DNA from: Planctomycetaceae bacterium
GTDB taxonomy: Bacteria; Planctomycetota; UBA8742; UBA2392; JABWBM01
Direction: 5' to 3'
NCBI GenBank assembly: GCA_013360495.1
Contig: JABWBM010000029.1
Span: 1-43,956, forward strand
DNA: 43,956 bases
The translations under genes were made by a program, and so were the position numbers. Each line of letters opens with the position of its first letter. The stretch's first letter is position 1. Of this stretch, positions 223 to 42,000 are shown piece after piece. The notes below the pieces were generated by a model that saw nothing but the letters and a program-made list of their open reading frames with translations, had not been told where the DNA came from and did not search any database.

Positions 223-891
223 CTACGCCCCCCTTACGAGAAGCCGCTTCTCCGTCCAGCGGATCAACGCTGTAGCGGCGAGACTCAACACGAGAAACAC
301 CAACCCGAGCAATGTGTACACCTCGATCGTGCTGCCGGCGCGAGACGCGTAGTTGTTGGATTCCATCAAAAGCTCGCGGAGCGTGATCGCGAACAACAAG
401 GGTGTATCCTTCAACATCGCCACGAGATAGTTCCCGAGGGCGGGAACGATCGGCGGAATAGCCTGAGGAAGGATGACGGAAATCCACGTCCGCGCGCGAC
501 TCATGTTCAGCGCTTTCGCCGCGTCCCACTGGCCACACGAAACGCCTTCGATGCCCGACCGGTACACTTCTGACACATAACAGGCATAGTGAACGCCGAG
601 CATGACAATGCCGATGGTGAGCGTGCTCGCCCATGGTTGACCAGAGAGCAAGAAATACACGAAGAACAGTTGAATCAGCAGCGGCGTCCCACGCACGAAT
701 TCAACAATGAGTGAGATCGTCCTCGATAAAACCCTAAGCCTACTGCGGCGCAGAATGACCAGCGGCAAACCGAGCATCAGCGCGATCATCATGCCGCCAC
801 ACGTCGCGAGCAACGTTGTCACCACTCCTCTGCCGAGGACGGGCAGCGCGTCCCGGGCAACCATCCAGTCCCACGGCACTTCAAGCAACAT
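223..891 (-). CDS. ehuD: Ectoine/hydroxyectoine ABC transporter permease
   Basis: Polar amino acid permease motifs RGTPLLIQLF, SEVYRSGI, GQWDAAKALNM, ILPQAIPP. Start placed at ATG 891 overlapping the end of ehuC (ORF track extends to 927). Confidence 0.9.
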   Translation of the reverse strand: MLLEVPWDWMVARDALPVLGRGVVTTLLATCGGMMIALMLGLPLVILRRSRLRVLSRTISLIVEFVRGTPLLIQLFFVYFLLSGQPWASTLTIGIVMLGVHYACYVSEVYRSGIEGVSCGQWDAAKALNMSRARTWISVILPQAIPPIVPALGNYLVAMLKDTPLLFAITLRELLMESNNYASRAGSTIEVYTLLGLVFLVLSLAATALIRWTEKRLLVRGA

Positions 892-1546
892 GGGCGCCTC
901 CCGCTCTGATGCCGCGGCTGGCGGCAACCTCTATCCGGCGAACCACAAAGGCGGTCAACGCCGCGATGGCGAAATAGAACGCCAGCGAAATACCGAATAT
1001 TTCCGCGGTGCGCTGCGTGCTGTTCTGCAGCACACGGCCATGATGAGCCAGCTCCTCGACGCTGATGAACATGACAAGCGCGGTATTTTTGAGAAGTTCG
1101 ATCTGAAGATTCCCGTAAGGCGGCAGCATGCGGACAAGCGCCTGGGGAAGGATGACATACCTCATGCGGGACCAGCGCGACATATTGAGCGCGGTCGCTG
1201 CCTCCCATTGTCCTCGTGGAATGCTGGTGATGGCGCCGCGAACGATTTCAGCTCCATAGGAAGAGTAGTTGAGTCCCAACCCCAGCACGCCGACAGCGAA
1301 CGCTCCGAGTTCGATTCCAAAGTAAGGAAGAACGTAATAGAGCCAAAACAATAATATGAGAACTGGCAGCCCTCGAAATACGTGAACGTAGAGAGCAGCA
1401 AGCCCTCGCAGCAGAGCGTTCGGCGCGACTCGCCCGAGCCCTGCGAGGGTCGACAGGACGAGGACGGCCAGGCTGGATACGACGTACACTTTGAGGGTGA
1501 CCCAAAGTCCCTGTGTCAAATGTGGAAAGAGATCGAAGAATGGCAC
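881..1546 (-). CDS. ehuC: Ectoine/hydroxyectoine ABC transporter permease
   Basis: Motifs FRGLPVLILLFWLY, YGAEIVRGAI, GQWEAATALNM, ILPQA, IELLKNTALV; position between the binding protein and the second permease. Confidence 0.9.
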   Translation of the reverse strand: MPFFDLFPHLTQGLWVTLKVYVVSSLAVLVLSTLAGLGRVAPNALLRGLAALYVHVFRGLPVLILLFWLYYVLPYFGIELGAFAVGVLGLGLNYSSYGAEIVRGAITSIPRGQWEAATALNMSRWSRMRYVILPQALVRMLPPYGNLQIELLKNTALVMFISVEELAHHGRVLQNSTQRTAEIFGISLAFYFAIAALTAFVVRRIEVAASRGIRAGGAHVA

Positions 1547-7183: not shown

Positions 7184-7260
7184 CGGGCCGTAGCGCAGCC
7201 TGGTAGCGCACTTCCTTGGGGTGGAAGGGGTCGGGAGTTCAAATCTCCCCGGCCCGACCA
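7184..7260 (+). tRNA. tRNA-Pro (anticodon GGG)
   Basis: 77 nt; acceptor stem CGGGCCG/CGGCCCG, D-arm AGCCTGGTAGC, anticodon arm CTTCC-TT GGG GT-GGAAG, T-loop GTTCAAATC, encoded CCA. Confidence 0.96.
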
Positions 7261-7312
7261 GCATAAACCCGTGTGGCTCTTGAACTTGAGAGCCATGCGG
7301 GTTTTGCTTTTA
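7261..7312 (+). terminator. Long hairpin immediately downstream of tRNA-Pro
   Basis: gcataaacccgtgtggctct...agagccatgcgggttttgc followed by tttt. Confidence 0.6.
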
Positions 7313-7500
7313 TCCCGCAAAAATCGTCGCGTCACCCAAAACGTCACCCATTCTTTCACTTTTTCGCAACCAAAGAGTCCATATTCAGGCGCACTTGCGG
7401 GAGTATTTCGGCCCAATCTGGCACACCGCATTGTCCTATAACGCGCCCAAGTCCGATAGAATGCTGGCTCATGTGGCAAACGACAGAATGAGAAATAGAA

Positions 7501-7995
7501 ATGGGGAAGCACCTCGGCAGCTATATCGAACAGGAGCGCATCCGGCAGGGCCTGCGGCGGTCGGAGCTGGCCACCCATGCCGGGTGGCGAAGCACCAAGG
7601 GCTGCCGGAAAATTACGGCGCTTGAGCGCGGCGAGGAAGTTGACGAGGCGGCGCTGCGCCGCCTCGTCCCAGTACTGAACCTCAACCCTAGTGTCATCGA
7701 AATGCTCTTGGAGCGCGACCGGCAAGACTTACTCGCGGAAATCAAGCGGCAGGAAGTCGGGTTTCAACCCTACATGCTCATTCGGCTATTGGCTGCCGTA
7801 TTCATGCGCGTCGAGATTCCCGTTGACGTAGAGCGCGACGAATTCCATTTGCGCGAGTTCGCCCGCGCTCACGCGGAGCACATCAGGCGGCAGGTCTGCC
7901 TAGCCGTCGGCCCCGTGCGCTGTGTCTGGATCAGCCCCGACGACCCGAATGAATGGGTGGAGGATGCCACGCCGCCGCGTCCGTTGTTTCGATAG
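7501..7995 (+). CDS. XRE-type helix-turn-helix protein
   Basis: LGSYIEQERIRQGLRRSELATHAG...KITALERG resembles an HTH_3 N-terminus; C-terminal region unrecognised. Confidence 0.7.
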   Translation: MGKHLGSYIEQERIRQGLRRSELATHAGWRSTKGCRKITALERGEEVDEAALRRLVPVLNLNPSVIEMLLERDRQDLLAEIKRQEVGFQPYMLIRLLAAVFMRVEIPVDVERDEFHLREFARAHAEHIRRQVCLAVGPVRCVWISPDDPNEWVEDATPPRPLFR

Positions 7996-8056
7996 GCCGA
8001 GTCACCACGATCAACCGGTTGCCCGCTCTGGAAGCCTGACAGACAATGCGGGCAAC

Positions 8057-8875
8057 ATGCTTCGAGCGCGACTGAAAAGAAAAGCAGAGCAATTGGAACT
8101 TCCGGGTCATCTCGGTCCCGGTGAAATTGCGAAACTTGTCAATAGCTCAAGAACGGCTGTTTCGGCGGCCATTCATCGCCATGCTTTGGATTATTACATC
8201 GGCCAAAAACCGGAGAAAGACGGTCGTGTTCGCATCAACCTGAAAGACTTTTCTTTCGCGCTGCGAAGAGCCAACCCTACTTTCGATTCTCAGGTTTATG
8301 CACTACAGGAAGAATTGAACATCAAGGCAGATGCTCTGGAGACGACACGTCAACGGATTGTGAGAGCAGCAGAGCGTTGTGGCGCTGTCGAACCATTCAC
8401 TGTCACACAATGCGCTGACATTCTGAATATTTCAAGAAAGCTGCTCACCAAGACTCTCAAGGCCCATCAACCCCGATTGGTTACATTTGATCTTTGTCCG
8501 GTACTAACGCGAGGCCCAATGCCGATGGTCTGGAGCGACGAGCTTGCATTGTTCACCTGCCGGACGAATCAACCGCTACCGAAGTCCAAGGTGAGCGATT
8601 CGACAATCAGATGTCTCGATTGGATCAAGGGCACCCTTGTTTGTTGTGCGTCCCGGCACGGCATTCGAGAGCCATACACTATTTACGACGTTATGCGCAT
8701 CCTCAAAATCAGCAAGCAAAGAGTAACTCGCCCGCTCTCGAACGGCGAGGCACCCTTGATCGCATTCGACGTTGGCACCGGCAGTCGCAGGATATGGCGT
8801 ATCTGGAACGACGATCTCTCTTGGCACCTTATGCTCGGAAATCGTGACCGATGGAGGGATGTCGATGGACATTGA
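8057..8875 (+). CDS. Protein with three tandem excisionase/MerR-like HTH domains
   Basis: Repeats LGPGEIAKLVNSSRTAV, EPFTVTQCADILNISRKLL, EPYTIYDVMRILKISKQRV. Start placed at ATG 8057. Confidence 0.65.
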   Translation: MLRARLKRKAEQLELPGHLGPGEIAKLVNSSRTAVSAAIHRHALDYYIGQKPEKDGRVRINLKDFSFALRRANPTFDSQVYALQEELNIKADALETTRQRIVRAAERCGAVEPFTVTQCADILNISRKLLTKTLKAHQPRLVTFDLCPVLTRGPMPMVWSDELALFTCRTNQPLPKSKVSDSTIRCLDWIKGTLVCCASRHGIREPYTIYDVMRILKISKQRVTRPLSNGEAPLIAFDVGTGSRRIWRIWNDDLSWHLMLGNRDRWRDVDGH

Positions 8876-9638
8876 ACTGCGCGAAGGTGATGTCATCGAG
8901 GACGTGCTGCGGTCACGAATTGAGCGGCTGAAGCTGAAAGAGCCGTTCACGACCGCGCAGGTCGGATCAATCCTCAGTATCCGTCGAGAAAGAGTTAATA
9001 ATCTCCTATGGGGAAATCCTCCACGATTGCAAGCATCACGAGTCCCGACAGGGAGAAGCCAGTCTATCCGCTGCACAATTACGTTTCACGACTTGTTGAA
9101 GTACATGGAGGAAAACGATCCGCGTATTGCCATAAGAGAACGTCAGTATCGTGTCTCTGAAGCTATCGGTGAAGAACGTCTTGAAGCTGAGTATGCGCGA
9201 CTAATGAAACTTACCAATGACCTCGGCTTTCATGAACCACTCACCGTACAGGAAGTCGCCAAACTTTTCGGTAAATCTTTACCGCGTGTGTATGAGGCGG
9301 CGCGTTCCTATGGACCGACTCGTTTGCTCCCTTGGTTTGACCCTACACCCGCGATTTTTGGGAAGACGGTTTACAGATTCTGGTTACGGGGTGTCGCATT
9401 TTACGCTTGCATTGCCCATCTGGACGAACGCGAACGACACGAAGCCAGTCGAAGAAAGAAGTTTGATCTTGCATGGCATAAACAAGAGCTTTCAAAGAGA
9501 GCAGCCGAACTCAGCTTCAGGGAGCCATATACTGTGTCTGAGGCAGCTACCATTCTTCGCGTCAGTCATACCATGATGCACAGAGCGGTAAGCCTTGGCT
9601 TCGATTGCCATCTCCGCTCCCACTGCTTCGAAGCGTAG
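8865..9638 (+). CDS. Paralogous protein with three tandem excisionase/MerR-like HTH domains (last one possibly truncated)
   Basis: Repeats EPFTTAQVGSILSIRRERV, EPLTVQEVAKLFGKSLPRV, EPYTVSEAATILRVSHTMM; GGAGGG upstream of ATG 8865. Confidence 0.65.
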   Translation: MDIELREGDVIEDVLRSRIERLKLKEPFTTAQVGSILSIRRERVNNLLWGNPPRLQASRVPTGRSQSIRCTITFHDLLKYMEENDPRIAIRERQYRVSEAIGEERLEAEYARLMKLTNDLGFHEPLTVQEVAKLFGKSLPRVYEAARSYGPTRLLPWFDPTPAIFGKTVYRFWLRGVAFYACIAHLDERERHEASRRKKFDLAWHKQELSKRAAELSFREPYTVSEAATILRVSHTMMHRAVSLGFDCHLRSHCFEA

Positions 9639-9750
9639 TCGGCATCAATGCTGACGTTTCCGGCTCTCCGGGCGGCAAAGGCGCCACGGAACGCGCCCGC
9701 GGATTTTTGGGAATACATGGCACCTTCGAACGTTCTATAATTACAGAATC

Positions 9751-10251
9751 ATGCTCGGCTCCGTTGCCAGTCTCGTCGCCTCGCTCACGCTCATCGTGCT
9801 CCCGGTAAGCGCACCGTGCGTGTGCCACAGCTTCACGTTCTTCGGCGGCCTGCGGTGTAGCGCTGCGGGCGGCGGGAATTGCGAGGAACAAGCGAACGAA
9901 GTGGAACAGCAATGCTGCAGTCATTGCGGGAATGCCGCTCAATCGAATGCGGGCTCAGACCCGGTTCCCTTGAGTTCAGGCAACCCGTGTGAACATCAAG
10001 GACATGCCCCCAATCCTCATTGCCCCAATTCGAAGCACCCGGAAATTCACAGCCTCACGCTTCTCCAGCCCGCGCCAATGGCATTGATCGACGTAACACG
10101 AACAACCGGCAACGATACTGCACGATTCGTTTTGCTGGTCTTTTCCGCCTCATTCTCTTCTCCCGTGACAAACGCTTTGCGCCATGACAGCGCGCGCATC
10201 CTCGCCCCGCCACCATTGCGATTCATCGAGCCGGTCCGGCTGTTAATCTGA
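9751..10251 (+). CDS. Cys/His-rich exported small protein; putative metal-sensing leader ORF
   Basis: N-terminal hydrophobic segment, CVCH and CCSHC motifs, His-rich stretch CEHQGHAPNPHC, Pro-rich C-terminus RILAPPP...LLI. Confidence 0.65.
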   Translation: MLGSVASLVASLTLIVLPVSAPCVCHSFTFFGGLRCSAAGGGNCEEQANEVEQQCCSHCGNAAQSNAGSDPVPLSSGNPCEHQGHAPNPHCPNSKHPEIHSLTLLQPAPMALIDVTRTTGNDTARFVLLVFSASFSSPVTNALRHDSARILAPPPLRFIEPVRLLI

Positions 10252-10282
10252 GAGTCGGGTTTCTTTGGTCGCCGCTGCTGCA

Positions 10283-10358
10283 GTAGCGTCATGCCTATGG
10301 CATGACGTCTTTGAGCCTGCGGGGAAGAGAAGACGTCACGGCATAGCCGTGACGCTAC
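10283..10358. repeat. REPIN-like element, family B (GTAGCGTCA...TGACGCTAC)
   Basis: Two inverted GTAG-initiated REP units flanking a spacer; related copies at 11333, 12425, 13165 and 33411. Confidence 0.75.
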
Positions 10359-10362
10359 AAGA

Positions 10363-10389
10363 CTGGATTCCGGCTTACGCCGGAATGAC
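10363..10389. repeat. REP family A half-unit (CTGGATTCCGGC...GCCGGAATGAC)
   Basis: Reverse complement of the family A motif. Confidence 0.65.
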
Positions 10390-10416
10390 AAGTGGTATAT
10401 CAACAAGGATCAACCA

Positions 10417-11331
10417 ATGACTCATCGTCACTGAATCGTCCGGGGGGCGCTGCTCCTCATCGCCGTGGCGGGTCTCGCCGCGAATCTCTCCGCCCATGAA
10501 ACGCTCTTCGGGCGCGGGCCGCGCACCATGTGGAAGGGCGGCTTCGAACTGGAAATGGAGACCATGTTCGAGCAATCGAAGCGTTTCTACGAGGGCGACA
10601 ACACCGTCGCCAACCCTGACAACATGCGCATGTATGAAGCCACGTGGTCACCAGGGATAACCTACGGTGTGACGCGAGACTTCGCCGTCAAAGCGGAATT
10701 TCCCTTCATGTACGGCGTGATGACGGGCGAGTCCATGGGCCGCCACTCTCTCCTGAGCATCGGCAACTGGGAGGTGGGCGCCGCCTATCGCATCGATCCT
10801 TTGATCTTCGGTGGACCGCTGGTGTTCGAGGGAGGGAGCTGCCAGCTTCGTCTCTTTGGAAAGGCCGAACTGCCGACGGCTCCGGAACGGGAGAACGGCA
10901 TCAGCTTCGGCGAGGAGACCTTCACCTTCCTCGGTGGCGGCGCCATCGCCATTGGCACGGCGCGCCATTACTTCTGGGGCGAGGTGTCGGGCGACATCTC
11001 AACGGAAAAGGACGGCACGGGCATGGGTCCCGCGCTGCAGTCCCACGCCGCCTATGCCTGGCGCATCCAGGAGCTCAAGGACTACCGCGAGCTTGACATC
11101 ATCCTGCTCTTTGAACTGGACGTAGAGGCGCGCTCGAAGGGAACGATGAACGGCGATGACGACCCGGACAGCGGGCATTTCACCACGTACCTCGGGAGCG
11201 GTGTTCAGGTCAACTTCACCAACCTGATCTCGCTCAAGACCGGCTACAACGTTCCGCTCTACCGGCGCTACAACGGCGTGCAGTTGGCGGATGATGGCAC
11301 GTTCATGCTGATGTTCAGTTATTTGTTCTAG
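10417..11331 (+). CDS. Outer-membrane beta-barrel 'transporter' (MetA-pathway/PF13557-like), Met-rich, with an in-frame TGA at codon 6
   Basis: AAGGA RBS then ATG 10417: MTHRH-TGA-IVRGALLLIAVAGLAANLSA|HE... gives a signal peptide only if TGA 10432-10434 is read through. Body has GITYGVT, K.ELPT, DPDSG...YLGSGVQ, VPLYRRYNGVQL and a terminal Phe (YLF). ORF track starts at GTG 10465. Confidence 0.75.
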
Positions 11332-11332
11332 G

Positions 11333-11405
11333 CGTAGCGTCACGCGCCCTCGCGTGACGAACCAATCAAAAGATACAACGTCACGCGAGGGCGCGTGACG
11401 CTACG
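11333..11405. repeat. REPIN-like element, family B
   Basis: cgtagcgtcacgcgccctcgcgtgacg ... cgtcacgcgagggcgcgtgacgctacg is a perfect inverted pair. Confidence 0.8.
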
Positions 11406-11423
11406 AAGAAAGACGCGGTCACT

Positions 11424-11813
11424 ATGCAACGCTTTCAACATACGATTCTGATGGCCATGTTCATCGCCGGCTTCGCCGCGTGCATGAATATCTCCGTCGC
11501 GAACATCGATCCGCCCGCGGATCACAAACCCGTTACGAACGTGCCCACCGATCGAGACGCGATATACAAACTCAAAGTTAAGGGCGTGGACTGAGGCGAG
11601 TGAGCGACGGGCCTGATACAGGCTTTTGAATCCCTGGATGGGGTTCGCGAAGTTCGAACGGATATCACCGAGGCGATGGTCTATCTCCGCACGGAACCGG
11701 GAACGGTGCTTGTGTGGGAGGACGTCGCGACAGCCGCCGTGTCCTACGGTTATGGTCTCGCGGCGCTGGAGCTGGCCGACATCCCGTGGGAAAAGCTCTC
11801 GGGCGGCGAGTGA
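11424..11813 (+). CDS. Lipoprotein with heavy-metal-associated (HMA, CopZ/MerP-like) domain carrying a UxxU motif; candidate double-selenocysteine protein
   Basis: Manual translation: MQRFQHTILMAMFIAGFAAC (lipobox) MNISVANIDPPADHKPVTNVPTDRDAIYKLKVKGVD-TGA-GE-TGA-ATGLIQAFESLDGVREVRTDITEAMVYLRTEPGTVLVWEDVATAAVSYGYGLAALELADIPWEKLSGGE*. The TGAs at 11592 and 11601 (codons 57 and 60) occupy both Cys positions of the HMA G[M/V]xCxxC motif. Absent from the ORF track. Confidence 0.85.
11611..11652 (+). promoter_or_regulatory. Two tandem bacterial SECIS-like stem-loops
   Basis: GCCT-GATAC-AGGC (11611-11623; loop 20 nt after the first TGA) and GAATCCC-TGGAT-GGGGTTC (11628-11646, extendable to 11623-11652; loop 31 nt after the second TGA). 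Each has G at loop position 1 or 2. Confidence 0.6.
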
Positions 11814-11876
11814 CGGGGATGAGGACAAGCATCCGCCCTCTGGCATTGCGGGCCGGACGAGCTATCATTTCACCCC

Positions 11877-12233
11877 ATGACCGACCGGGTGCTCAACCTC
11901 GTGATCTTTGCCGGCGTACTCTGCGTCGTAGCAGGCGGAGCTGCTGCCGTCGGTTCGCTTTTCGGCCCGGCGCGCCGTGGCAAGACCAAAGAATCGCCCT
12001 ACGAGTGCGGTTCCCCAATCCTGAACGAAACGCGCAAGAAGTTCGACGTGCGTTTCTTCATGCTGGCGATGATCTTCATCCTCTTCGACATCGAAACCGT
12101 ACTCTTGATCCCCTACGCCGTTCAGTACGAACGCTTCGGCGTGGCCGGCCTCGTAATCGCCGGCATCTTCTTCCTCGGCCTCGTGGAATCGCTCATCTAT
12201 GCCTGGAAGAAGGGCGCGCTGGACTGGAAATAG
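11877..12233 (+). CDS. nuoA: NADH-quinone oxidoreductase subunit A (stand-alone)
   Basis: K.SPYECG, FDVRFFMLAMIFILFDIE, YAWKKGALDW. Confidence 0.92.
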   Translation: MTDRVLNLVIFAGVLCVVAGGAAAVGSLFGPARRGKTKESPYECGSPILNETRKKFDVRFFMLAMIFILFDIETVLLIPYAVQYERFGVAGLVIAGIFFLGLVESLIYAWKKGALDWK

Positions 12234-12375
12234 CGCCTGAAGCGCTTCTCAGGATTACCTTCGGATTTACGTTGCTCTCGCGCGTTTGGCAGGGGCGTCT
12301 TCACTTCATCAATCTGCTGCAAATCATCTCCGGAAACGCTCTCATACCGGTTCAATGAAAGAAATCGGTTCTTGC

Positions 12376-12423
12376 CGTCATTCCCGCAAAGGCGCAATGC
12401 GATACGATTAGCGGCAGGAATCT
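12376..12423. repeat. REP family A, degenerate
   Basis: cgtcattcccgc...gcaggaatct. Confidence 0.55.
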
Positions 12424-12583: not shown

Positions 12584-12961
12584 TCAACGGTGGCAGCTAT
12601 CCACTCGTTCATACACGATCGTGTAATAACCTTCATGGTGAATGGTTCTGTCGCGGTGTTCATACCGGCCCGGAACCCACTCGCGACGAATGCGCCGCAC
12701 TTCGACTCCGCATTCTCTGGTGATTGTGACGCGGTCTTCAAAGTGCCCCGGAATCCATACCTCTTCGCAAATCACTTCATCCCAGCACGGCACCCAAACC
12801 TTTTTCTCCACATAGCGCGTTTGATGACGGGATGAACTTCCGTGGTGATGGTGGGAACTCGATGTGAATCCCGCGCGCACGGAAACGCGCTGTCCGGCAA
12901 ATACCGGTGCCGCGCCGGCGCAAACGAAGAGGGCCACGATTGACAGGGTGCGCAGTTTCAT
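12584..12961 (-). CDS. Small secreted protein with VW[VI]PG-type repeats and His tract
   Basis: Signal peptide MKLRTLSIVALFVCAGAAPVFA; KKVWVP, EEVWIPGH, REWVPGRY; RBS GAAGGAG upstream. Confidence 0.75.
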   Translation of the reverse strand: MKLRTLSIVALFVCAGAAPVFAGQRVSVRAGFTSSSHHHHGSSSRHQTRYVEKKVWVPCWDEVICEEVWIPGHFEDRVTITRECGVEVRRIRREWVPGRYEHRDRTIHHEGYYTIVYERVDSCHR

Positions 12962-36037: not shown

Positions 36038-39000
36038 ATGCGTTCACGTATCGCGCTGTGCCTCGTTACGTTTGTATCTATTTCACTCAATGTGCTGATC
36101 GCGCAGACGGTTGATAGCGTCCGTGATATCGACGGCGCGACGCCCGCCGGTCTTGGCGGCACATGGAATGTCGAAGGCGACGCGCGCGCGTCGTGCGTGG
36201 TGGGGGATGTGCTCTACCTCGGCGGCTGTTTCACCAAGGTGAACGGCATCGCGTGCAAGAACCTCGCGACGATCAACTTGAAGACCAAGGTCGTTTCAAG
36301 CTGGTGCTCGCATGTGGACGGTGAGGTGTATGCGCTGGCATCCGACGGCGAGAAGATTTTCGTCGGCGGAAAATTCGCGTGTTCCTTTAACACAGGCGGT
36401 GGCGACGCTGCCACCGTCGTCAAGCGCAACAATTTGATCGCTCTTAATAAGGATGGCACAGCCGACCTGCGCTGCCCGGGCGTGGGCGGCGAGGTGAAGG
36501 CGCTCACATGCGCGGGCGGCATTCTCTATGTCGGTGGAAGCTTTCGCCGCGTGGGGAACCAGCCGCGGCAAAATATCGCGTCGATGAAGTGCTCGGGCGA
36601 TGCGAGCGAGGTGATGAAGGTGACGGAGTGGGCGCCCGCCGTTGACGGCGCGGTGCATGCCATCGCCGTGGACGATGAGAGCGGCGACATCTTCATCGGC
36701 GGCGCGTTCGACGCGGTGAATGGTCAGGCGTGCGGGAAGATGGCGGGCTTTACGGCGAGCGGCGCGTGCAAAACCTGGGATCCACAGTTCGACGGCAATG
36801 TGCATGCGATCTGCTTTGGCGGCGATGGCGAGAAGCGCGCGCTCTACACCGGCGGCGAGTTCACCCATGCGCGCGGAAAAGAACGCAATCGCCTTGCGGC
36901 ATTCGTCCCGGGCGAGGAGCGGAGCGGCTGGGCATTGTCGGAATGGAATGTCGGCGCCGATGGCCCGGTGTACGCGCTCGATACATATGAAGACGGCGTC
37001 GCTATCGGCGGCGATTTCGACGAACTCGGCGGCGAGCCTGTGGAAAACGCCGGCATGGCGCAAGGCGCCTCTTATGGTTCCTCGGCTGCGACGTCGTCGC
37101 CCTTCGCGCCGACAACACTGCCGCCACCGGTTGTTCCTCCGACGGTTTCGTCGCTGGTCATCATCCCCGGCGGCACGATTATCATTGCCGGCGGGCCGAC
37201 CGTAATCGCAGTGAGGGTCATCGTATACCCCTTCGGGAAAATCCTGCGGGTTCGACTGAATTCTCCGACGGGGCCGATTCTCGTCTTTAACGCAACGCAG
37301 GATTTCGGCACGCTCAACATTGGACAGACGTCGGCGCCGAGACGTTACTACCTCGTCAACGAGTCCATCTCGAACCAGAACATCAATGTTTCGAATCTTA
37401 TCAAGAACGGTACGAACCCCGGCGATTTCATTTTGAATACAGGAACGTTCGGCACAGGCGGCGTCATTCCCTGGCAGCAGAACAGGTGGTTCGAAATCTC
37501 CTTCGCACCGACGGTCTCCGGTTTCCGAGAGGCCAATGTTCAGTTCACCCACGACGCATTCACGCCGTCATCGCCGTTCAAAATTCATCCGGTGGGGACG
37601 GGGGCTGGAACTTCGGGAAACATAGTCGTTCATGAAACCTCTCCCACAGGAACGATCGTCGTCAATGACTCTCCGCCGGCCAACGGGCGCATCATCGACA
37701 ACATTCCCGTCGGGACGTCGAGCGCCCCACTGCGCCTGTATATTGTGAATAGTGGCGCCACAACGCTTGGCGCATGGGGCTTGCAACTGTCGGGCTCAAC
37801 CCAATTTTCACTGAACTCGGGCACCTTTGGTGGAGACATTCCCCCCGGCCAGAACAAGTGGGTAGAAGTGACGTTCAGTCCGATCAATACCATAACGCAG
37901 ACGGCAACTGTACAGTTCTTCCACAGCGCGGGGAACACATCGTCGCCGTTCAAGATCAATCTTTCAGGGACGGGCATCATACCGAACCCGGGATTAGTGG
38001 TAACGAGCGATGAAACCAATCCGCCAACCGTCATTCCCTACAACGCACCCGCGACGGGCGGACGGGATTTCGGCCAGTGGGCGATCAACATGGGCTCGAC
38101 GCCCTCGGTCACTTTCACCATAACGAATGACGGCACTGGAACGACGACGGTGGGCGTGCCTGCAATCAATGGGGGCAGTGCGGAGTTTCTTATCTCAGCG
38201 CAATCGTTCCCGGCGACGCTTGCGCCAGGCCAAAGCGCATCGTTTACGATCAGATTTCATCCTTGCGACCCGACGCCGGTGCTGACCAAGTCGGTGGAGT
38301 TCACGCACAACGCCACGAATATCGCTCCTTCGCCTTTCAAATTCGCGGTGAGTGGTCAGGGTGTATCGCCAACGGGCGGGGCCGGCGGCCTTCCATCGAG
38401 CTTCTTTTCGACATTTTCAACCACGTCGGCAGGTGGGGAGCTTGGCACACACGTGATTAAAAGGGTCGGCGATATCATTTACGTCGGAGGGAATTTTGGG
38501 GGAACGAATAATCTGTTCGCCCTTGACGTTTGCGCAGGCGGACTTCCGGGTTGGACATCACCGTCGATTGACGGCCCTGTATACGATCTTGTGGTCTTTA
38601 ATGGCCGCGTCTATTTCTGCGGGAGTTTCTTATGGATCAACGGCGAACTCTCTCCGAATCTCGCGTGCGTCGACGCAAACACCGGCGCTTTCGTTCCATG
38701 GATAGATACGGGCACATTGCTGATTTTAGGCGGCGGTGCCGGCGGGACGACGATCTCCTCGTTAACAGCTTCCGGATCGTATATTTATGCTGGTGGACAA
38801 TTTCGTTGGACAATTCCTAACTCCGGAATTTTCTGGGATGGTTTGCTTAAGGTGGATGCTAATACTGGTATTCCGGATTTGAATTTTCCATCAATGCCCT
38901 CGCCATCGTTAGGAAATTGGGTTAACGCCATGACGTTAAGCCCATCCGCGACAGAGTTATTCATCACCGGACGTTTCAATATTGTTGGTACCACACCAAG

Positions 39001-42000
39001 ACAAAACCTCGCAAAAATCACGCTCTCCACCAATGCCGTCAGTACGACCTTTCCGGAAATCATGACCGGCGGCGAAGGCTTTGCGGTTTCCTATCTCAAT
39101 GGAAAAATCTACGTCGGTGGAACATTTACGGATGTCACCGGCCCTGTTGACCCGAGCGGACTCATAAAAATCGACCCCGCCACTGACACCGTCGAAAACT
39201 GGAACGCGAATCTCGGTGGAATGCAGACGGTCAAAGCGATTAGACGACAAAGCGGGATGATCTTTATTGGCGGCGATTTCGATTCCGTGGGCGGGCTGTC
39301 CCGACTCAATCTCGCAGCGGTGGACGAAATCGACGCATCGCCGGAATACTGGAATCCGGAAGCCACCGGCGGCGCGGTCAACGCGCTTGAATTCGGGAAT
39401 GCAGCGCTTTTTGGCGGTGGACACTTCACCGACATCAATCAGAATGGTCCCGGTGGTCTTGCAAGATTTCCGTTTCTTTACCCCATAGACCAGCACGTCT
39501 ACGAAGATACCGCGACAGATCCAGAGATAGTCAATGGAGCGATGCCAGCGAACGGCCGCGTCTTTGGGACTTGGAGTCTTGACGATGGCCCGACCCCAGC
39601 ACTCGCTATCGTGGTGAAGAATGAAGGGCTAGGAAAACTCGGGTTAAGTATGCCAATCATCGAATCGGGGGACGCGGCAGATTTCGTTCTCGATACGACC
39701 AGTTTCCCGCAGTTTCTTAATCCGAAATCTTCGGCGTCGTTCACGTTAGCGTTCGATCCACAGTCCGCTGGCTCCAAGCTTATCACCGTTCGTTTTGATT
39801 TCGGTGATTATAACAATCTTTCACCATTTACCTTCCAAGCGAGCGGCACCGGAGCGCTGCCGACGATTCAGGTGACCGACGCCAGTATGAATGTAGTCGT
39901 CAACGGGAGCGCCCCTGTCGGCGATCGCGATTTCGGCGATGTCAATGTCGGTTCGCCTTTCTCTCAGACCATGATCACGATTAAAAATACCGGAACCGTT
40001 CCGTTGCAGCTTGGCGATCCCCAGTTGGATGGCGGAGACACAGACGATTTCGGTATTAATCTATTCGGATTCCAGACGCCGCTTGATCCATCGGATATAG
40101 CGGTATTTTTCATGAATTTTGATCCTCAAACGGTAGGCGCGAAGCTCGTCCAAGTTACATTCACGCACAATGCTTCCAACACGACGACGCCTTTCCGCGT
40201 GCTCTTCGGCGGCAACGGTATCGGTCCCGCGGTTCCCACACTCAACACCATTGGCAACAAAACAACTTCGGAAAATACGCTGTTACAGTTCACTGCATCA
40301 GCCAACGATCCCGATTCGGGCGAGATTCTCCGCTACACAGCAGATGACGGCGCGGGCGGGCCGCTACCCGCAGGCGCCAGCATCAATGCTTACACCGGCA
40401 AATTCACCTGGACGCCCGATTTCAGCCAGGCGCAGGGCAGCCCATACACCGTGCGCGTAACCGTCACTGACTTTGGTGGCCTCTCGGATAGCGAATCGTT
40501 CACCATTTCCGTCAACAATGTGAATCAAGCACCGGTGATCAGTTCAAGCGGCAATCGTACCGTCATTGTCAATCAATTGCTGCAGTTTGACGTGACGGCG
40601 AGCGACGCCGATCCAGGCAACGCTCTCACGTTCTTTTTTAGCAACTTGCCCTCAGGCGCAAGCTTCACGCAAACCGGACCAACGTCAGCGCAGTTTTCGT
40701 GGACTCCCATCGCCGGGCAGGTTGGTGTTTACAGCTATGTCGGTTTGAGCGTTACCGATGACGATCTGTCATCGCCGCTCGATGACACCGACATCATCGC
40801 CATCACCGTCACGACGACGCCGAGCACCGTGATCGCCGCGTCAGGCTCCGGCCAGACGGCCGCAGTGGGCGAGGACTTCACCTCCCCCCTGCGCGCGCAG
40901 GTGGTGAACGTTAACTGCGATCCCGTCGCGGGCGAAACCGTGACCTTCACCGTCACCGGCGGCGCTGCCAATTTTGCGGGGGCATCGTTCACTGCAGCCA
41001 TCACCGACCTCGGCGGCTATGCGACCGCTCCAAGCCTCACCGCGGGTCCTGCGGCAGGGGCGGTCACCGTGACCGCTTCCGTCTTCGGCGGCTCCAGCGA
41101 CGACTTCAATCTCGTGAGCGGTTCGGCCACGGGCGTCGCCGCGCGCGCGACGATCACCAGCGGCCCCGTCACCGTGGGCAGTCCGGTGAGCATCGCGTTG
41201 CAGGCCGTCGACGAGGGCGGCAACGACGTCACCGACTTTATTGCTACCGTTGACGTCGTCATCTCCGGCGCGGGGAACTTCACAGACGAGGTCACGTTCA
41301 TCGCCGCCGATAACGGCTTCAAGGCGCTGACCGGCTACGTCACCTTCCTCGTCAGCGGCAATCAGGAGATCGTGGTCACGCCTCAGTTCATCGGCGGCAT
41401 CGTGACTCAAACCGTCGTCCCCGTGTCAGTTTCCGGCGCGAGCACCATCCGCATTATCGAGGGCGGTGGCGAGGACGTGGCGCGTAATTCCGTGGCCGCC
41501 ACGTTGCCGCGCTATCAGGTGATCGATGCCTATGGCAACGCGGTTGCGGGCGCATCGGTGACGGCGCAGGTGATCGCGGGCGACGCGCAGTTCGCTGAGC
41601 GCGACACAGGCGGTCTCAATTTCCTTGGCACGTCCTACACCACGGCGGCAGATAACGACGGCATCCCGGAAGCGTTCTACATCTACGCCGAGGATGGCTA
41701 TGAGCCGATCGTCGTCGAGCTTTCCTGCCCGGGAACGTCGCCCGTCGAGATGGAGTTCACGCCGGTGGACGCGTTCCCCTCGCCTTACGGCCTGCGCGAT
41801 GGCGCGACGTCGACCATCAGCAGCACGTCCTTCGCGTGGTACAACGGCGCTGCATATGACTCGATCGAAGTCCTCGACCCCGACAGCGGTAACGTGATCG
41901 ATACGCTTGGCGGCTCGGCGGAGAGCTACGTCGCGGGTGGGCTCGAACCCAACGAGCCGGTCGCCATCTTCGTGCGAGGCGTGGTGGGCGGGGTTCCGTC

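What the first reader, a model, noticed from the sequence alone, without database searches (positions are those of the whole stretch)
9751..11813. Three-gene envelope metal module: Cys/His leader ORF, Met-rich outer-membrane barrel, UxxU HMA lipoprotein
Seen: three co-oriented exported products separated mainly by REP elements. All carry soft-metal ligands (CVCH/CCSHC/His; a Met-rich barrel with His at the mature N-terminus; an HMA motif), and there are three in-frame TGAs across two genes. Inference: a selenium-dependent outer-membrane import, sensing or detoxification system for Cu/Ag/Hg, in which the barrel passes metal to a lipid-anchored selenolate chaperone. I know of no described system with this combination. 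No P-type ATPase, MerT or MerA gene is adjacent.
Basis: inference. Interest (0 to 1): 0.88.

Follow-up and report, generated by a model that had tools for sequence, protein, structure and literature searches.

The report
Selenium-dependent outer-membrane metal module
A Planctomycetota bacterium pairs an outer-membrane channel with a lipid-anchored metal-binding protein that uses two selenocysteines in place of cysteines, and the channel gene carries a conserved UGA inside its disposable export signal, which may tie channel production to selenium supply.

Summary
The three in-frame TGAs are real and conserved, and they are present in RNA-library contigs.

The conserved unit has two genes, not three:
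- **Channel:** an outer-membrane beta-barrel of the COG4313/PF13557 fold (10417-11331).
- **Metal-binding lipoprotein:** an HMA (CopZ/MerP-fold) protein whose CxxC motif is UxxU (11424-11813).

This pair occurs in all 21 species found, all within one Planctomycetota order. In the sister family a MerR-family metal sensor precedes it, and a second HMA lipoprotein (CxxC, UxxC or UxxU) follows it.

Selenocysteine decoding of the HMA gene is well supported. Both TGAs are conserved, paralogues carry Cys at the same positions, covarying hairpins follow the TGAs, and SelA, SelB and tRNA-Sec are present.

ORF1 is a real gene. In three relatives its homologues sit beside an efflux outer-membrane gene instead, so it is not part of the module.

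UxxU HMA selenoproteins are already curated (NF041115), but this protein is not a member of that family (20.5 bits against a cut-off of 95).

The new element is a UGA inside the channel's cleaved signal peptide. It is present in 18 of 21 species, at codon 5, 6, 7, 12 or 13 depending on lineage. It was found only in barrels that sit next to a UxxU HMA gene. It must be read through for the protein to be exported. It is most likely selenocysteine acting as a selenium checkpoint, but this is untested.

The parts
9751..10251 (+). ORF1: a 166-aa Cys/His-rich protein with a hydrophobic N-terminus. It is a real gene family but not a conserved part of the module.
   Evidence: It has no Pfam or NCBIfam hit. 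GC at codon positions is 0.60/0.52/0.65, against GC3 of 0.71-0.81 in the neighbouring genes. One homologue has 36% identity over the full length, with conserved motifs LPVSAPCxCH, CCxxC and PPPLRFIEPVRLLI. Weak homologues in G004, G011 and G017 lie next to an OEP gene, not next to the barrel. An RNA-library contig covers 9751-10133.
10283..10358 (.). REP-like palindromic element 1, between ORF1 and the barrel.
   Evidence: It is one of 31 paired elements of the form GTAGCGTCA...TGACGCTAC in the genome. Assemblies break at it.
10417..11331 (+). Outer-membrane beta-barrel gene of the COG4313/PF13557 fold. The signal peptide is MTHRH-U-IVRGALLLIAVAGLAANLSA, and the mature protein starts at His (codon 10495-10497).
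   Evidence: Translation is. The AlphaFold model has pLDDT 87.4. The best Foldseek matches are 4rl8 (TM 0.75/0.78) and FapF (0.68-0.75). A profile search found 326 relatives at E<=1e-3, the distant ones scoring as PF13557. Orthologues lie next to a UxxU HMA gene in all 21 species.
10432..10434 (+). In-frame TGA at codon 6, inside the cleaved signal peptide.
   Evidence: The TGA is present in 18 of 21 species, at codon 6, 7 or 13, and at codon 5 in L086 and codon 12 in L089. None of 12 distant barrels lacking a UxxU HMA neighbour has one. An RNA-library contig carries the TGA unchanged.
10464..10482 (+). Candidate SECIS hairpin CGUGGCG-GGUCU-CGCCGCG, starting 29 nt after the signal-peptide UGA.
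   Evidence: The hairpin appears in the fold and the hairpin scan. The nearest relative L086 has GCAGCA-AGUUG-UGCUGC in the same codon register, with two compensatory pairs. The energy z-score for the window is 0.34, which is not significant.
11334..11404 (.). REP-like palindromic element 2, inserted between the barrel and the HMA gene.
   Evidence: It is identified. The barrel-to-HMA gap is 92 nt here, against -1 to 19 nt in 17 relatives.
11424..11813 (+). HMA lipoprotein selenoprotein of 129 aa, ending in a TGA stop. The lipobox is FAAC (Cys20, 11481-11483), followed by a linker and then a beta-alpha-beta-beta-alpha-beta HMA domain.
   Evidence: Translation is. Pfam HMA scores 20.3 bits, below the 24.8 cut-off, while relatives score 28.3 and 29.1. 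The model has pLDDT 82.3, and Foldseek matches CopZ 6ff2 (TMt 0.82) and MerP 1osd (0.81). A PDB profile search matches CopZ at E 7.3e-6.
11592..11603 (+). The U-G-E-U motif: TGA codons 57 and 60 stand at the two Cys positions of the HMA metal-binding loop.
   Evidence: Both TGAs are present in 21 of 21 species. The HMA2 paralogues carry CxxC, UxxC or UxxU at the same columns. In the model they lie at the start of helix 1.
11609..11647 (+). Two hairpins downstream of the UGAs, the SECIS candidates: 11609-11625 (7 bp) and 11627-11647 (loop UGGAU).
   Evidence: In alignment A1 of 18 sequences, 96% of cells pair, against 33-61% in slid registers. Compensatory changes occur at columns 22/30 (GC 13, AU 4, CG 1) and 24/28. 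The covariation score is 0.157 against 0.084 in shuffles (0 of 500 reach it). The fold z-score is -1.67.

Best explanation
The conserved unit is a two-gene envelope operon found in one order of Planctomycetota. Gene 1 encodes an outer-membrane beta-barrel channel of the COG4313/PF13557 fold. Gene 2 encodes a lipoprotein with a flexible linker and an HMA (CopZ/MerP-type) domain whose two metal-ligating cysteines are selenocysteines (UxxU).

Shown:
- The pair is conserved, the folds are as stated, the TGAs are conserved, and RNA-library contigs cover the genes.
- The two HMA UGAs are read as selenocysteine, as far as sequence evidence can show. This rests on Cys/Sec exchange in paralogues, covarying downstream hairpins, and the presence of SelA, SelB and tRNA-Sec.

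Inferred:
- The module handles a soft, probably divalent, metal ion in the envelope, such as Hg, Cd, Zn, Pb or possibly Cu/Ag. In the sister family it is driven by a MerR-family three-Cys metal sensor from a MerR-type promoter, and a second HMA lipoprotein follows it.
- The selenolate pair captures the ion in the periplasm or at the surface. The barrel is the route across the outer membrane, either for the ion or for the linker-tethered HMA domain.

The UGA in the barrel's cleaved signal peptide must be decoded, because without read-through the remaining peptide cannot act as a signal peptide. I think it is most likely read as selenocysteine (about 65-70%). On that reading it acts as a selenium checkpoint. 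Without Sec-tRNA, translation stops after 4 to 12 codons. No channel is made, and the tightly coupled downstream selenoprotein gene is probably not expressed either.

ORF1 is only a neighbour in this genome.
For: Module:
- The HMA homologue carries 2 TGAs in 18 of 23 sister-family genomes, and in every primary hit.
- The barrel lies directly upstream in all of them, with a gap of -1 to 19 nt in 17 relatives.
- A genome-contig scan found 20 loci. Nineteen are titled Planctomycetota or Planctomycetaceae MAGs and one 'uncultured bacterium'.
- Four further distinct metagenome loci show the same pairing.

Folds.

Selenocysteine in the HMA protein:
- HMA2 orthologues carry CxxC in 8 loci, UxxC in 3 (L040, L045, L047) and UxxU in 1 (L052). 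L052 has a further CxxC copy, and L053 has one CxxC and one UxxU copy.
- The hairpins covary.
- SelB scores 345 bits and SelA 558 bits, both over their cut-offs.
- A tRNA-Sec with anticodon TCA is present, cut by a contig end at C163.
- All 23 sister-family genomes have SelD (itself with 1 TGA) and tRNA-Sec.
- A second Sec-HMA gene lies in the same genome.

Metal link: the upstream regulator in relatives scores ZntR 127.7, MerR 120.6, CadR/PbrR 109.8 and CueR 101.3 bits. A promoter of the form TTGAAC - dyad CCTGTA..TACAGG - TAnnnT lies between it and the barrel.

Signal-peptide UGA:
- It is present in 18 of 21 species, plus L086 and L089, at five different codon positions.
- None of 12 distant barrels without a UxxU partner has one.
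- In the L062/L065/L089 group only 9 residues follow the UGA before the cleavage site, so read-through is required.
- A hairpin with G in the first two loop positions starts 8-16 nt after the UGA in 13 of 17 genes, against 9.6% of 4800 control positions.
- The window and L086 share a hairpin register with 2 compensatory pairs.
- The SelD SECIS loops of relatives (CGUGC, CGGGC, GGU) resemble the barrel loops (CGUGCU, CGUGA, GGUCU).

Expression: RNA-library contigs from two studies cover the barrel and HMA gene, including all TGAs. None covers 9300-9715, which a DNA run does cover.
Against: - SelD was not found in this assembly (best 32 bits). The assembly is 92% complete.
- The window has no MerR regulator, no MerR-type promoter and no HMA2. 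The metal link therefore comes from relatives only.
- The regulator is below every NCBIfam cut-off, so the metal is not identified.
- The main-group signal-peptide hairpin shows no covariation above shuffles (116-160 of 500 reach the observed values).
- Folding energies after the signal-peptide UGA are not better than shuffles for most genes: z is about 0 and 0.34 for the window.
- No homologue has Cys at the signal-peptide UGA position. One has Gly and the others unrelated residues, so the classic Sec/Cys criterion is not met there.
- Three of 21 species, plus L087 and L090, do without the UGA.
- In HMA2 genes, hairpins did not separate TGA-bearing copies from Cys copies.
- No RNA contig bridges the barrel and the HMA gene; the REP element breaks all assemblies there.
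- The genomes are related, so the counts are not independent.
Confidence: 0.6

Rival explanations
1. The signal-peptide UGA is not selenocysteine. It is a leaky stop read at low frequency by a near-cognate tRNA (Trp, Cys, Arg or Gly). It acts as a fixed attenuator that keeps the channel scarce relative to the lipoprotein.
For: - Any residue is tolerated at that place, since the position and context vary.
- One species has GGA there.
- In 11 of 14 main-group genes the UGA is followed by C. I recall UGA-C as the leakiest context in E. coli; this is recalled, not tested.
- The hairpin shows no significant covariation or energy signal in the main group.
Against: - The UGA is found only in barrels partnered with a UxxU gene: 0 of 12 distant barrels have one.
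- Hairpins with SECIS-like loops occur at SECIS-like distances in three divergent sequence contexts.
- There are compensatory changes between the window and L086.
- A leaky stop would also strongly lower a translationally coupled downstream gene, which argues against a role in setting stoichiometry.
Confidence: 0.17
2. The three-gene system proposed by the first reader is correct. ORF1, the barrel and the HMA lipoprotein work together, with ORF1 as a Cys/His metal-binding leader or sensor.
For: - The genes are co-oriented.
- RNA-library contigs X17 (10200-10497) and X18 (10186-10620) run from the 3' end of ORF1 across REP1 into the barrel, so read-through transcription is possible.
- ORF1 is Cys-rich and conserved.
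- Its relatives precede an outer-membrane efflux gene, which suggests a metal-related role.
Against: - ORF1 has no homologue in any barrel locus held, whose upstream flanks run from about 0.25 to 7 kb.
- In G004 the ORF1-like gene is on contig C6 and the barrel on C77.
- G011 and G017 have ORF1-like genes but gave no hit with the HMA query.
- A REP element and 165 nt separate ORF1 from the barrel.
- A contig across two genes does not show a single transcript.
Confidence: 0.08
3. The barrel is not a metal channel. It is a dedicated translocon, of the FapF type, that threads the disordered linker of the HMA lipoproteins and displays their selenolate domains on the cell surface.
For: - FapF, a polypeptide transporter, is among the best structural matches (TM 0.68-0.75).
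- HMA1 and HMA2 in relatives carry 30-60 residue Pro/Glu-rich linkers after the lipid-anchor Cys.
- The barrel and lipoprotein genes are tightly coupled.
Against: - The COG4313 channel 4rl8 matches equally well or better.
- The window's own HMA linker is short, at about 25 residues.
- There is no evidence of contact; the complex prediction gave no answer and is not counted either way.
Confidence: 0.2
4. The TGAs mark decayed genes or sequencing errors, so the locus is a pseudogene remnant.
For: The window copy has lost the MerR regulator and HMA2, and REP elements are inserted on both sides of the barrel.
Against: - The TGAs are conserved at the same codons across genes that share only 28-46% identity with the window's.
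- No other stops or frameshifts are present.
- GC3 is 0.81 for the barrel and 0.71 for the HMA gene.
- The sequence is identical in independent DNA and RNA-library contigs.
Confidence: 0.01

Closest known systems
NF041115 'UxxU_metal_bind' metal-binding (seleno)protein. [quoted passage not shown]
   Same: It is an HMA-type domain with both metal-binding cysteines replaced by selenocysteine.
   Different: The window protein scores 20.5 bits against a cut-off of 95. It is a lipoprotein with a linker and a C-terminal GYG..W tail, and it sits in an operon with an outer-membrane barrel. For the family I saw only table rows in PMC13188914, PMC9312934 and PMC2398784.
MerP of mer operons (TIGR02052), with MerR control
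   Same: It is a periplasmic HMA protein that binds a soft metal through two thiolates, and it is expressed from a MerR-type promoter. The fold match to 1osd and 1afi has TMt 0.81 and 0.76.
   Different: HMA1 has no TIGR02052 hit at E<=0.01. MerT was not found and no MerA scores over its cut-off in the genome. The protein is lipid-anchored, uses Sec instead of Cys, and is partnered with an outer-membrane barrel.
COG4313 / PF13557 (Phenol_MetA_deg) outer-membrane channels (Pput2725, PDB 4rl8) and FapF
   Same: The barrel fold matches (TM 0.75-0.78 and 0.68-0.75). Distant sequence relatives score as PF13557 and share the mature N-terminus HEPxFGxGPxT.
   Different: The window barrel itself has no Pfam hit over a cut-off. 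The known members are linked to uptake of hydrophobic compounds or to amyloid secretion (abstract starts only), not to metals. None is reported with a UGA in its signal peptide.
Periplasmic metal chaperones and sponges of copper/silver systems (CusF, PcoE/SilE, CopZ-like proteins)
   Same: They are small envelope proteins that hold soft metal ions and cooperate with outer-membrane components.
   Different: The folds or ligands differ (Met/His rather than selenolate), and no barrel of this family is involved. This comparison is from memory and was not tested here.
SECIS-dependent regulation in E. coli (SECIS-like element in the selAB leader; selenium-dependent decoding of fdhF). Recalled, not read here.
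   Same: The Sec-decoding machinery is used to couple expression to selenium status.
   Different: In the case proposed here, the Sec codon would lie in a cleaved signal peptide, so selenium would never reach the mature protein. I found no such case in print (searches; 'signal peptide' occurs 0 times in the 2026 review PMC13188914).

Membership tests
HMA domain (PF00403) | Sequence match over Pfam's gathering score | tested here: inconclusive
   The window protein scores 20.3 bits against a cut-off of 24.8. Orthologues read with C for U score 28.3 and 29.1 (over the cut-off) and 23.8 (under it). A profile search of PDB matches CopZ at E 7.3e-6.
HMA domain (PF00403) | Beta-alpha-beta-beta-alpha-beta fold, with the two metal ligands in the loop and first turn of helix 1 (GMxCxxC) | tested here: met
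   The model has strands and helices E46-53, H58-69, E74-80, E85-90, H98-106 and E111-118, with U57 and U60 at the loop and start of helix 1. TMt is 0.78-0.82 to CopZ and MerP.
Bacterial selenoprotein (HMA gene) | A conserved in-frame UGA that aligns with Cys in homologues | tested here: met
   Both TGAs are present in 21 of 21 species. HMA2 copies carry CxxC, UxxC or UxxU at the same columns.
Bacterial selenoprotein (HMA gene) | A SECIS stem-loop just downstream of the UGA | tested here: met
   Two conserved hairpins are present. Overall 96% of cells pair, there are compensatory changes, and the covariation score exceeds all 500 shuffles and all slid registers. Which of the two hairpins binds SelB is not settled.
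Bacterial selenoprotein (organism) | SelA, SelB, SelD and tRNA-Sec present in the genome | tested here: inconclusive
   SelB and SelA score over their cut-offs. tRNA-Sec is present but cut by a contig end. SelD was not found in the 92%-complete assembly. All four were not checked in relatives, but SelD and tRNA-Sec are present in 23 of 23 sister-family genomes.
Bacterial selenoprotein (barrel signal-peptide UGA) | Cys at the homologous position in relatives | tested here: not met
   Relatives without the UGA carry Gly or unrelated residues there. The UGA's position differs between lineages.
Bacterial selenoprotein (barrel signal-peptide UGA) | A SECIS stem-loop downstream of the UGA | tested here: inconclusive
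   A hairpin is present in 13 of 17 genes against a 9.6% background. The window and L086 show compensatory pairs. However, there is no covariation above shuffles in the main group, and energy z-scores are near 0.
NF041115 UxxU metal-binding selenoprotein | Score over the curated cut-off of 95 bits | tested here: not met
   The score is 20.5 bits.
MerP (TIGR02052) / mer operon | A MerP equivalog score, together with MerT and MerA partners | tested here: not met
   HMA1 has no TIGR02052 hit at E<=0.01. No MerT was found, and the best MerA score is 341.7 bits against a cut-off of 454.45.
COG4313 / PF13557 outer-membrane channel | Sequence match to PF13557 | tested here: not met
   The window barrel has no PF13557 hit, only OMP_b-brl at 16.5 bits against a cut-off of 28.7. 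Of 10 profile-search relatives scanned, 6 score over the PF13557 cut-off and 1 scores 21.9 against 22. The link is therefore through intermediates.
COG4313 / PF13557 outer-membrane channel | Barrel fold like 4rl8 | tested here: met
   TM is 0.75/0.78 with rmsd 3.2 over 285 columns, and the model has pLDDT 87.4.
MerR-family metal sensor (regulator in relatives only) | An equivalog score for a particular metal (MerR, ZntR, CadR/PbrR or CueR) | tested here: not met
   The scores are 120.6 against a cut-off of 150.85, 127.7 against 143, 109.8 against 151.45, and 101.3 against 147.4. Pfam MerR_1 and MerR-DNA-bind both score over their cut-offs.

The most novel reading that the evidence does not exclude
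The UGA in the channel's signal peptide is a selenocysteine codon used purely as a switch. Selenium is inserted into a leader that is then cut off and discarded. The codon's only job would be to let the cell build the outer-membrane channel, and by coupling or polarity the downstream double-selenocysteine chaperone, only when charged Sec-tRNA is available. This would be the first case of Sec decoding acting as a selenium-sensing translational checkpoint rather than supplying a catalytic or ligand residue.
Probability: 0.45. Interest if true: 0.85.

Novelty: new variant of a known kind. Interest (0 to 1): 0.72.

Why it matters
**Metal handling.** Selenolate-based metal handling in the bacterial envelope is almost unstudied. 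A lipid-anchored UxxU HMA protein wired to an outer-membrane channel and a MerR-type sensor gives a defined, testable system. It can show why cells spend selenium on metal binding, for example for affinity for Hg, Cd or Cu, or for resistance to oxidation in the periplasm.

**Gene annotation.** Gene callers break both genes. The barrel is stored from an internal Met and the HMA gene is cut at residue 56, so the family is invisible in databases.

**Regulation.** A UGA conserved in a cleaved signal peptide, found only where the partner gene needs selenocysteine, suggests a new regulatory use of the recoding machinery. A simple reporter experiment can test it.

Tried and rejected
- **Complex prediction.** I ran the barrel with the Cys-type HMA2, both from locus L039 and each with an alignment. 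The score was 0.09 against a mark of 0.32, so there was no answer. It is not used for or against binding. The window's own HMA1 was not sent, because that tool takes code-11 proteins only.
- **Rfam.** A scan of 9500-12300 at E<=5 gave only a chance miRNA-model hit on REP2 and a weak sRNA hit.
- **Promoter and terminator scan.** It found no promoter upstream of ORF1 or the barrel. The terminator-like hits are on the minus strand, within the REP elements.
- **Anchoring the fold on the barrel TGA.** fold_alignment mis-aligned the sequences because signal-peptide lengths differ. I replaced it with per-sequence folds and a fixed-register alignment.
- **TGA-bearing against Cys-type HMA2 genes.** A downstream hairpin was found in 3 of 5 TGA-bearing and 4 of 10 Cys-type copies, so the comparison was not informative.
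- **Other genes with a TGA in the signal peptide.** A scan of this genome for a start codon, then 3-20 codons, then a stop, then a signal-like continuation found only the barrel (TGA 1, TAG control 1). There is no sign of wider use here.
- **Genome-wide TGA reassignment.** Rejected: 312 of 937 long ORFs end in TGA.
- **Start at GTG 10465.** Rejected: it leaves a 10-residue leader.
- **Downstream restart after the UGA.** Rejected for the L062, L065 and L089 type, where only 9 residues remain before the cleavage site.
- **RNA cover.** No contig bridges REP2, and no RNA contig lies on 9300-9715 or 12108-12400. The gaps themselves prove nothing.
- **Supplementary files** of papers were closed. Sequence lists for the GOS 'MerP' and NF041115 families may be in them and could not be compared.

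Full report
**What is in the window**

Three co-oriented ORFs lie between a low-GC stretch that follows tRNA-Pro (7184-7260) and nuoA (11877-12233; Pfam Oxidored_q4 at 104.9 bits).

ORF1 (9751-10251) encodes 166 residues. It has a hydrophobic N-terminus and the motifs CVCH, CCSHC and HCPNSKH.

The barrel gene starts at ATG 10417, behind AAGGA. It reads MTHRH-TGA-IVRGALLLIAVAGLAANLSA, followed by HETLFG and onwards to a C-terminal Phe.

The third gene (11424-11813) reads as a lipoprotein precursor with lipobox FAAC. A short linker follows, then KLKVKGVD-TGA-GE-TGA-ATGLIQAFESLDGV.

Two palindromic elements of one family, GTAGCGTCA...TGACGCTAC, lie at 10283-10358 and 11334-11404. The genome holds 31 such paired elements.

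**The conserved unit is barrel plus HMA**

I searched the HMA protein, read with C for U, in 40 related genomes. It hit 18 of 23 genomes of the sister family in the same order, at 32-41% identity. Every primary hit had exactly two in-frame TGAs. The barrel lies directly upstream in every one of those loci.

With 7-kb flanks on 17 loci, the layout in the sister family is as follows:
- a MerR-family regulator;
- the barrel;
- the HMA1 lipoprotein, with motif G-[IVL]-[DNT]-G-[MI]-D-U-G-[QG]-U-[AT]-T-G;
- the HMA2 lipoprotein;
- then unrelated genes.

The barrel stop and the HMA1 start are -1 to 19 nt apart in the 17 relatives. In the window they are 92 nt apart, because REP2 is inserted there.

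A scan of one genome per species (185,579 species) found 20 loci. Nineteen are titled Planctomycetota or Planctomycetaceae MAGs and one 'uncultured bacterium'. The scan added two species, L062 and L065. A metagenome scan added four more distinct loci with the same pairing: L086, L087, L089 and L090. It also found 12 distant barrels with an HEPIFG N-terminus.

**The HMA protein is a double selenoprotein**

- **Position of the TGAs.** They stand at the two Cys positions of the HMA loop. In the AlphaFold model (pLDDT 82.3) they lie at the loop and the start of helix 1 of a beta-alpha-beta-beta-alpha-beta fold. The model matches CopZ (6ff2, TMt 0.82) and MerP (1osd, 0.81).
- **Cys/Sec exchange.** HMA2 carries CxxC in 8 loci, UxxC in 3 (L040, L045, L047) and UxxU in 1 (L052). 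L052 has a further CxxC copy, and L053 has one CxxC and one UxxU copy.
- **Downstream hairpins.** In an 18-sequence DNA alignment, two hairpins follow the TGAs. The first has 7 bp and starts 14 nt after the first UGA. It has compensatory changes (GC 13, AU 4, CG 1 at one pair) that include a synonymous GAC-to-GAT change. Across both hairpins 96% of cells pair, against 33-61% in slid registers. Covariation exceeds all 500 shuffles.
- **Decoding machinery.** SelB and SelA score over their cut-offs. A tRNA-Sec with anticodon TCA lies at the end of contig C163, cut by the contig end. SelD was not found in this 92%-complete assembly. All 23 sister-family genomes have SelD, itself with one TGA, and tRNA-Sec.
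- **TGA usage.** TGA is otherwise an ordinary stop: 312 of 937 long ORFs end with it.
- **A second Sec-HMA gene.** An exported HMA gene with the motif GMT-U-PAG-U lies on contig C151.

**Relation to known families**

NCBIfam holds NF041115, 'UxxU_metal_bind, metal-binding (seleno)protein'. Two reviews list it as a predicted family from ocean metagenomes; I saw only table rows. The 2008 GOS paper lists a 'MerP' selenoprotein, also seen only as a table row. The kind of protein is therefore known. The window protein scores 20.5 bits against that model's cut-off of 95, and it has no MerP equivalog hit. It belongs to a different subfamily: lipid-anchored, with a linker, and paired with a barrel.

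**The barrel**

The model has pLDDT 87.4. It matches the COG4313 channel 4rl8 (TM 0.75/0.78) and FapF (0.68-0.75).

A profile search of 1.84 billion representatives gave 326 hits at E<=1e-3 and only 9 at 1e-30. Of 10 relatives scanned, 6 score over the PF13557 cut-off. These distant relatives share the mature N-terminus HEPxFGxGPxT. The conserved mature His1 is therefore a feature of the superfamily, not a special feature of this module.

Met content is not conserved. I recall that 4rl8 has 12 strands. For the COG4313 and FapF papers I saw only the search listing and the starts of the abstracts.

**The UGA in the signal peptide**

Among the 21 GTDB species, 18 carry an in-frame TGA within the signal peptide:
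- codon 7 in the main group, M-[RKQN]-x-x-x-x-U-LLLL..A|HNTLFG, in 15 species;
- codon 13 in L062 and L065, MTLKHLALLALV-U-VLGAGAVSA|HE;
- codon 6 in the window.

The nearest relative, L086, whose barrel is 58% identical, has it at codon 5 (MGFR-U-TLKAMLLIVAASCAAGLEA|HE). L089 has it at codon 12.

It is absent in L040 (GGA at that position), L052, L053, L087 and L090. None of the 12 distant barrels has one, and none of them has a UxxU HMA gene downstream; L106 has a CxxC HMA.

The basic residues of the n-region lie before the UGA. In the L062 type only 9 residues follow it before the cleavage site. Export therefore requires read-through, and a downstream restart cannot explain the pattern.

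Evidence for a SECIS after this UGA is suggestive:
- A hairpin of at least 5 bp, with G in the first two loop positions, starts 8-16 nt after the UGA in 13 of 17 genes. The same holds for 9.6% of 4800 in-frame control positions in the same genes.
- The loops (CGUGCU, CGUGA, GGUCU, AGUUG) resemble those of the SelD SECIS in relatives (CGUGC, CGGGC, GGU).
- The window and L086 keep a 6-bp hairpin in the same codon register with two compensatory pairs.

Evidence against a SECIS:
- The main-group hairpin shows no covariation above shuffles.
- Folding energies are mostly no better than shuffles.
- No relative has Cys at that position.

I put selenocysteine at about 65-70%, near-cognate read-through at about 17%, and other explanations for the rest.

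I found no report of Sec, or of a conserved UGA, in a bacterial signal peptide. This rests on the searches, and on the 2026 review, which has no occurrence of 'signal peptide'.

**Metal link and regulation**

The upstream regulator in relatives has the MerR_1 and MerR-DNA-bind domains. It scores just under the cut-offs for ZntR, MerR, CadR/PbrR and CueR.

It carries Cys at the start of the dimerisation helix and a C-x7-C loop. From memory, this pattern goes with divalent soft metals.

In the main group, a promoter of the form TTGAAC - CCTGTA..TACAGG dyad - TAnnnT lies between the regulator and the barrel.

The window has none of this. It has no MerR orthologue (best hit 34% identity over the HTH only), no such promoter, and no HMA2. 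It has ORF1 and REP1 instead.

**ORF1**

ORF1 is a real family. One homologue has 36% identity over the full length, with conserved Cys motifs and a conserved C-terminus. Weak homologues occur in G004, G011 and G017.

Those homologues sit directly upstream of an OEP-family lipoprotein (PF02321, 86.4 bits), not next to the barrel. In G004 the two genes are on different contigs. ORF1 is therefore a neighbour in this genome only, although it may itself be metal-related.

**Expression**

Contigs from RNA libraries of two studies (X15; X17 and X18) cover the following with no differing letter:
- ORF1 at 9751-10133;
- the barrel, including its TGA;
- the HMA gene, including both TGAs.

None of these contigs lies on 9300-9715, which DNA run X11 does cover. 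X17 and X18 contigs run from the 3' end of ORF1 across REP1 into the barrel. No contig bridges REP2. Contigs cannot show transcript ends or a single transcript.

**Mechanism proposed**

Two steps are shown: a conserved operon of a channel plus a UxxU lipoprotein, and Sec decoding of the HMA gene.

Three steps are inferred:
- The selenolate pair binds a soft metal ion in the envelope.
- The barrel provides the outer-membrane route, either for the ion or for the tethered domain.
- The signal-peptide UGA makes synthesis of the channel, and through tight coupling that of the lipoprotein, depend on Sec-tRNA supply. An unpartnered channel, or a truncated lipoprotein ending at residue 56, would then not be made when selenium is short.

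Noticed in passing
G000 contig C151, about 651-1067 (+): The same genome holds a second exported HMA selenoprotein gene with the motif GMT-U-PAG-U. The two Sec residues are three residues apart instead of two. No barrel lies beside it. Pfam HMA scores 31.6 bits with 2 TGAs.
   Followed up: partly
window 7184-9700: tRNA-Pro (7184-7260) is followed by a stretch of lower GC (0.50-0.54 over about 8000-9800, against 0.597 for the window). This stretch holds two overlapping ORFs with HTH_17 (excisionase-type) domains, at 7922-8875 and 8772-9638. It may be the remnant of an integrated element that displaced the MerR gene found at this place in relatives.
   Followed up: partly
L083 (G011:C40), L085 (G017:C19), L084 (G004:C6): ORF1-like Cys-rich genes sit directly upstream of an outer-membrane efflux lipoprotein (PF02321). 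In G011 and G017 they lie about 7.5 kb from the tRNA-Sec gene on the same contig.
   Followed up: partly
window 9736-9753: A TATAAT hexamer at 9736-9741 lies 9 nt before the ORF1 ATG (9751). The X15 RNA-library contig begins exactly at 9751. This hints at a leaderless or near-leaderless ORF1 transcript, but contigs cannot show a start.
   Followed up: no
window 10367-10386: A perfect 8-bp hairpin, ATTCCGGC-TTAC-GCCGGAAT, lies between REP1 and the barrel's ribosome-binding site. Its function is unknown.
   Followed up: no
G000 contig C163:15243-15310 (-): The tRNA-Sec gene is cut by the contig end, and SelD is missing from the assembly. SelD may lie just beyond that end.
   Followed up: partly
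window 12584-12961 (-): A small exported ORF carries a His-rich run (SSSHHHHGSSSRH) just downstream of nuoA. It was not examined.
   Followed up: no
window 36038-43954 (+): An open frame of more than 2639 residues runs off the end of the window. It was not examined.
   Followed up: no
L106 (metagenome contig), +121 nt after the barrel: A distant HEPIFG-type barrel is followed by a Cys-type HMA gene (VKGLSCPFCAYGLEKKL). The barrel-HMA pairing may therefore extend beyond the selenoprotein lineage. It was seen in 1 of 12 distant loci.
   Followed up: no
L052, L053, L062, L065 downstream of HMA1: Further HMA proteins have Cys/Gly-rich N-terminal stretches, for example CGCKRACG...GGCGGGGCGGCGGG and QCCPEGECPGGVCPPGCCEDEKC. 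These loci therefore hold up to three HMA genes in a row.
   Followed up: no
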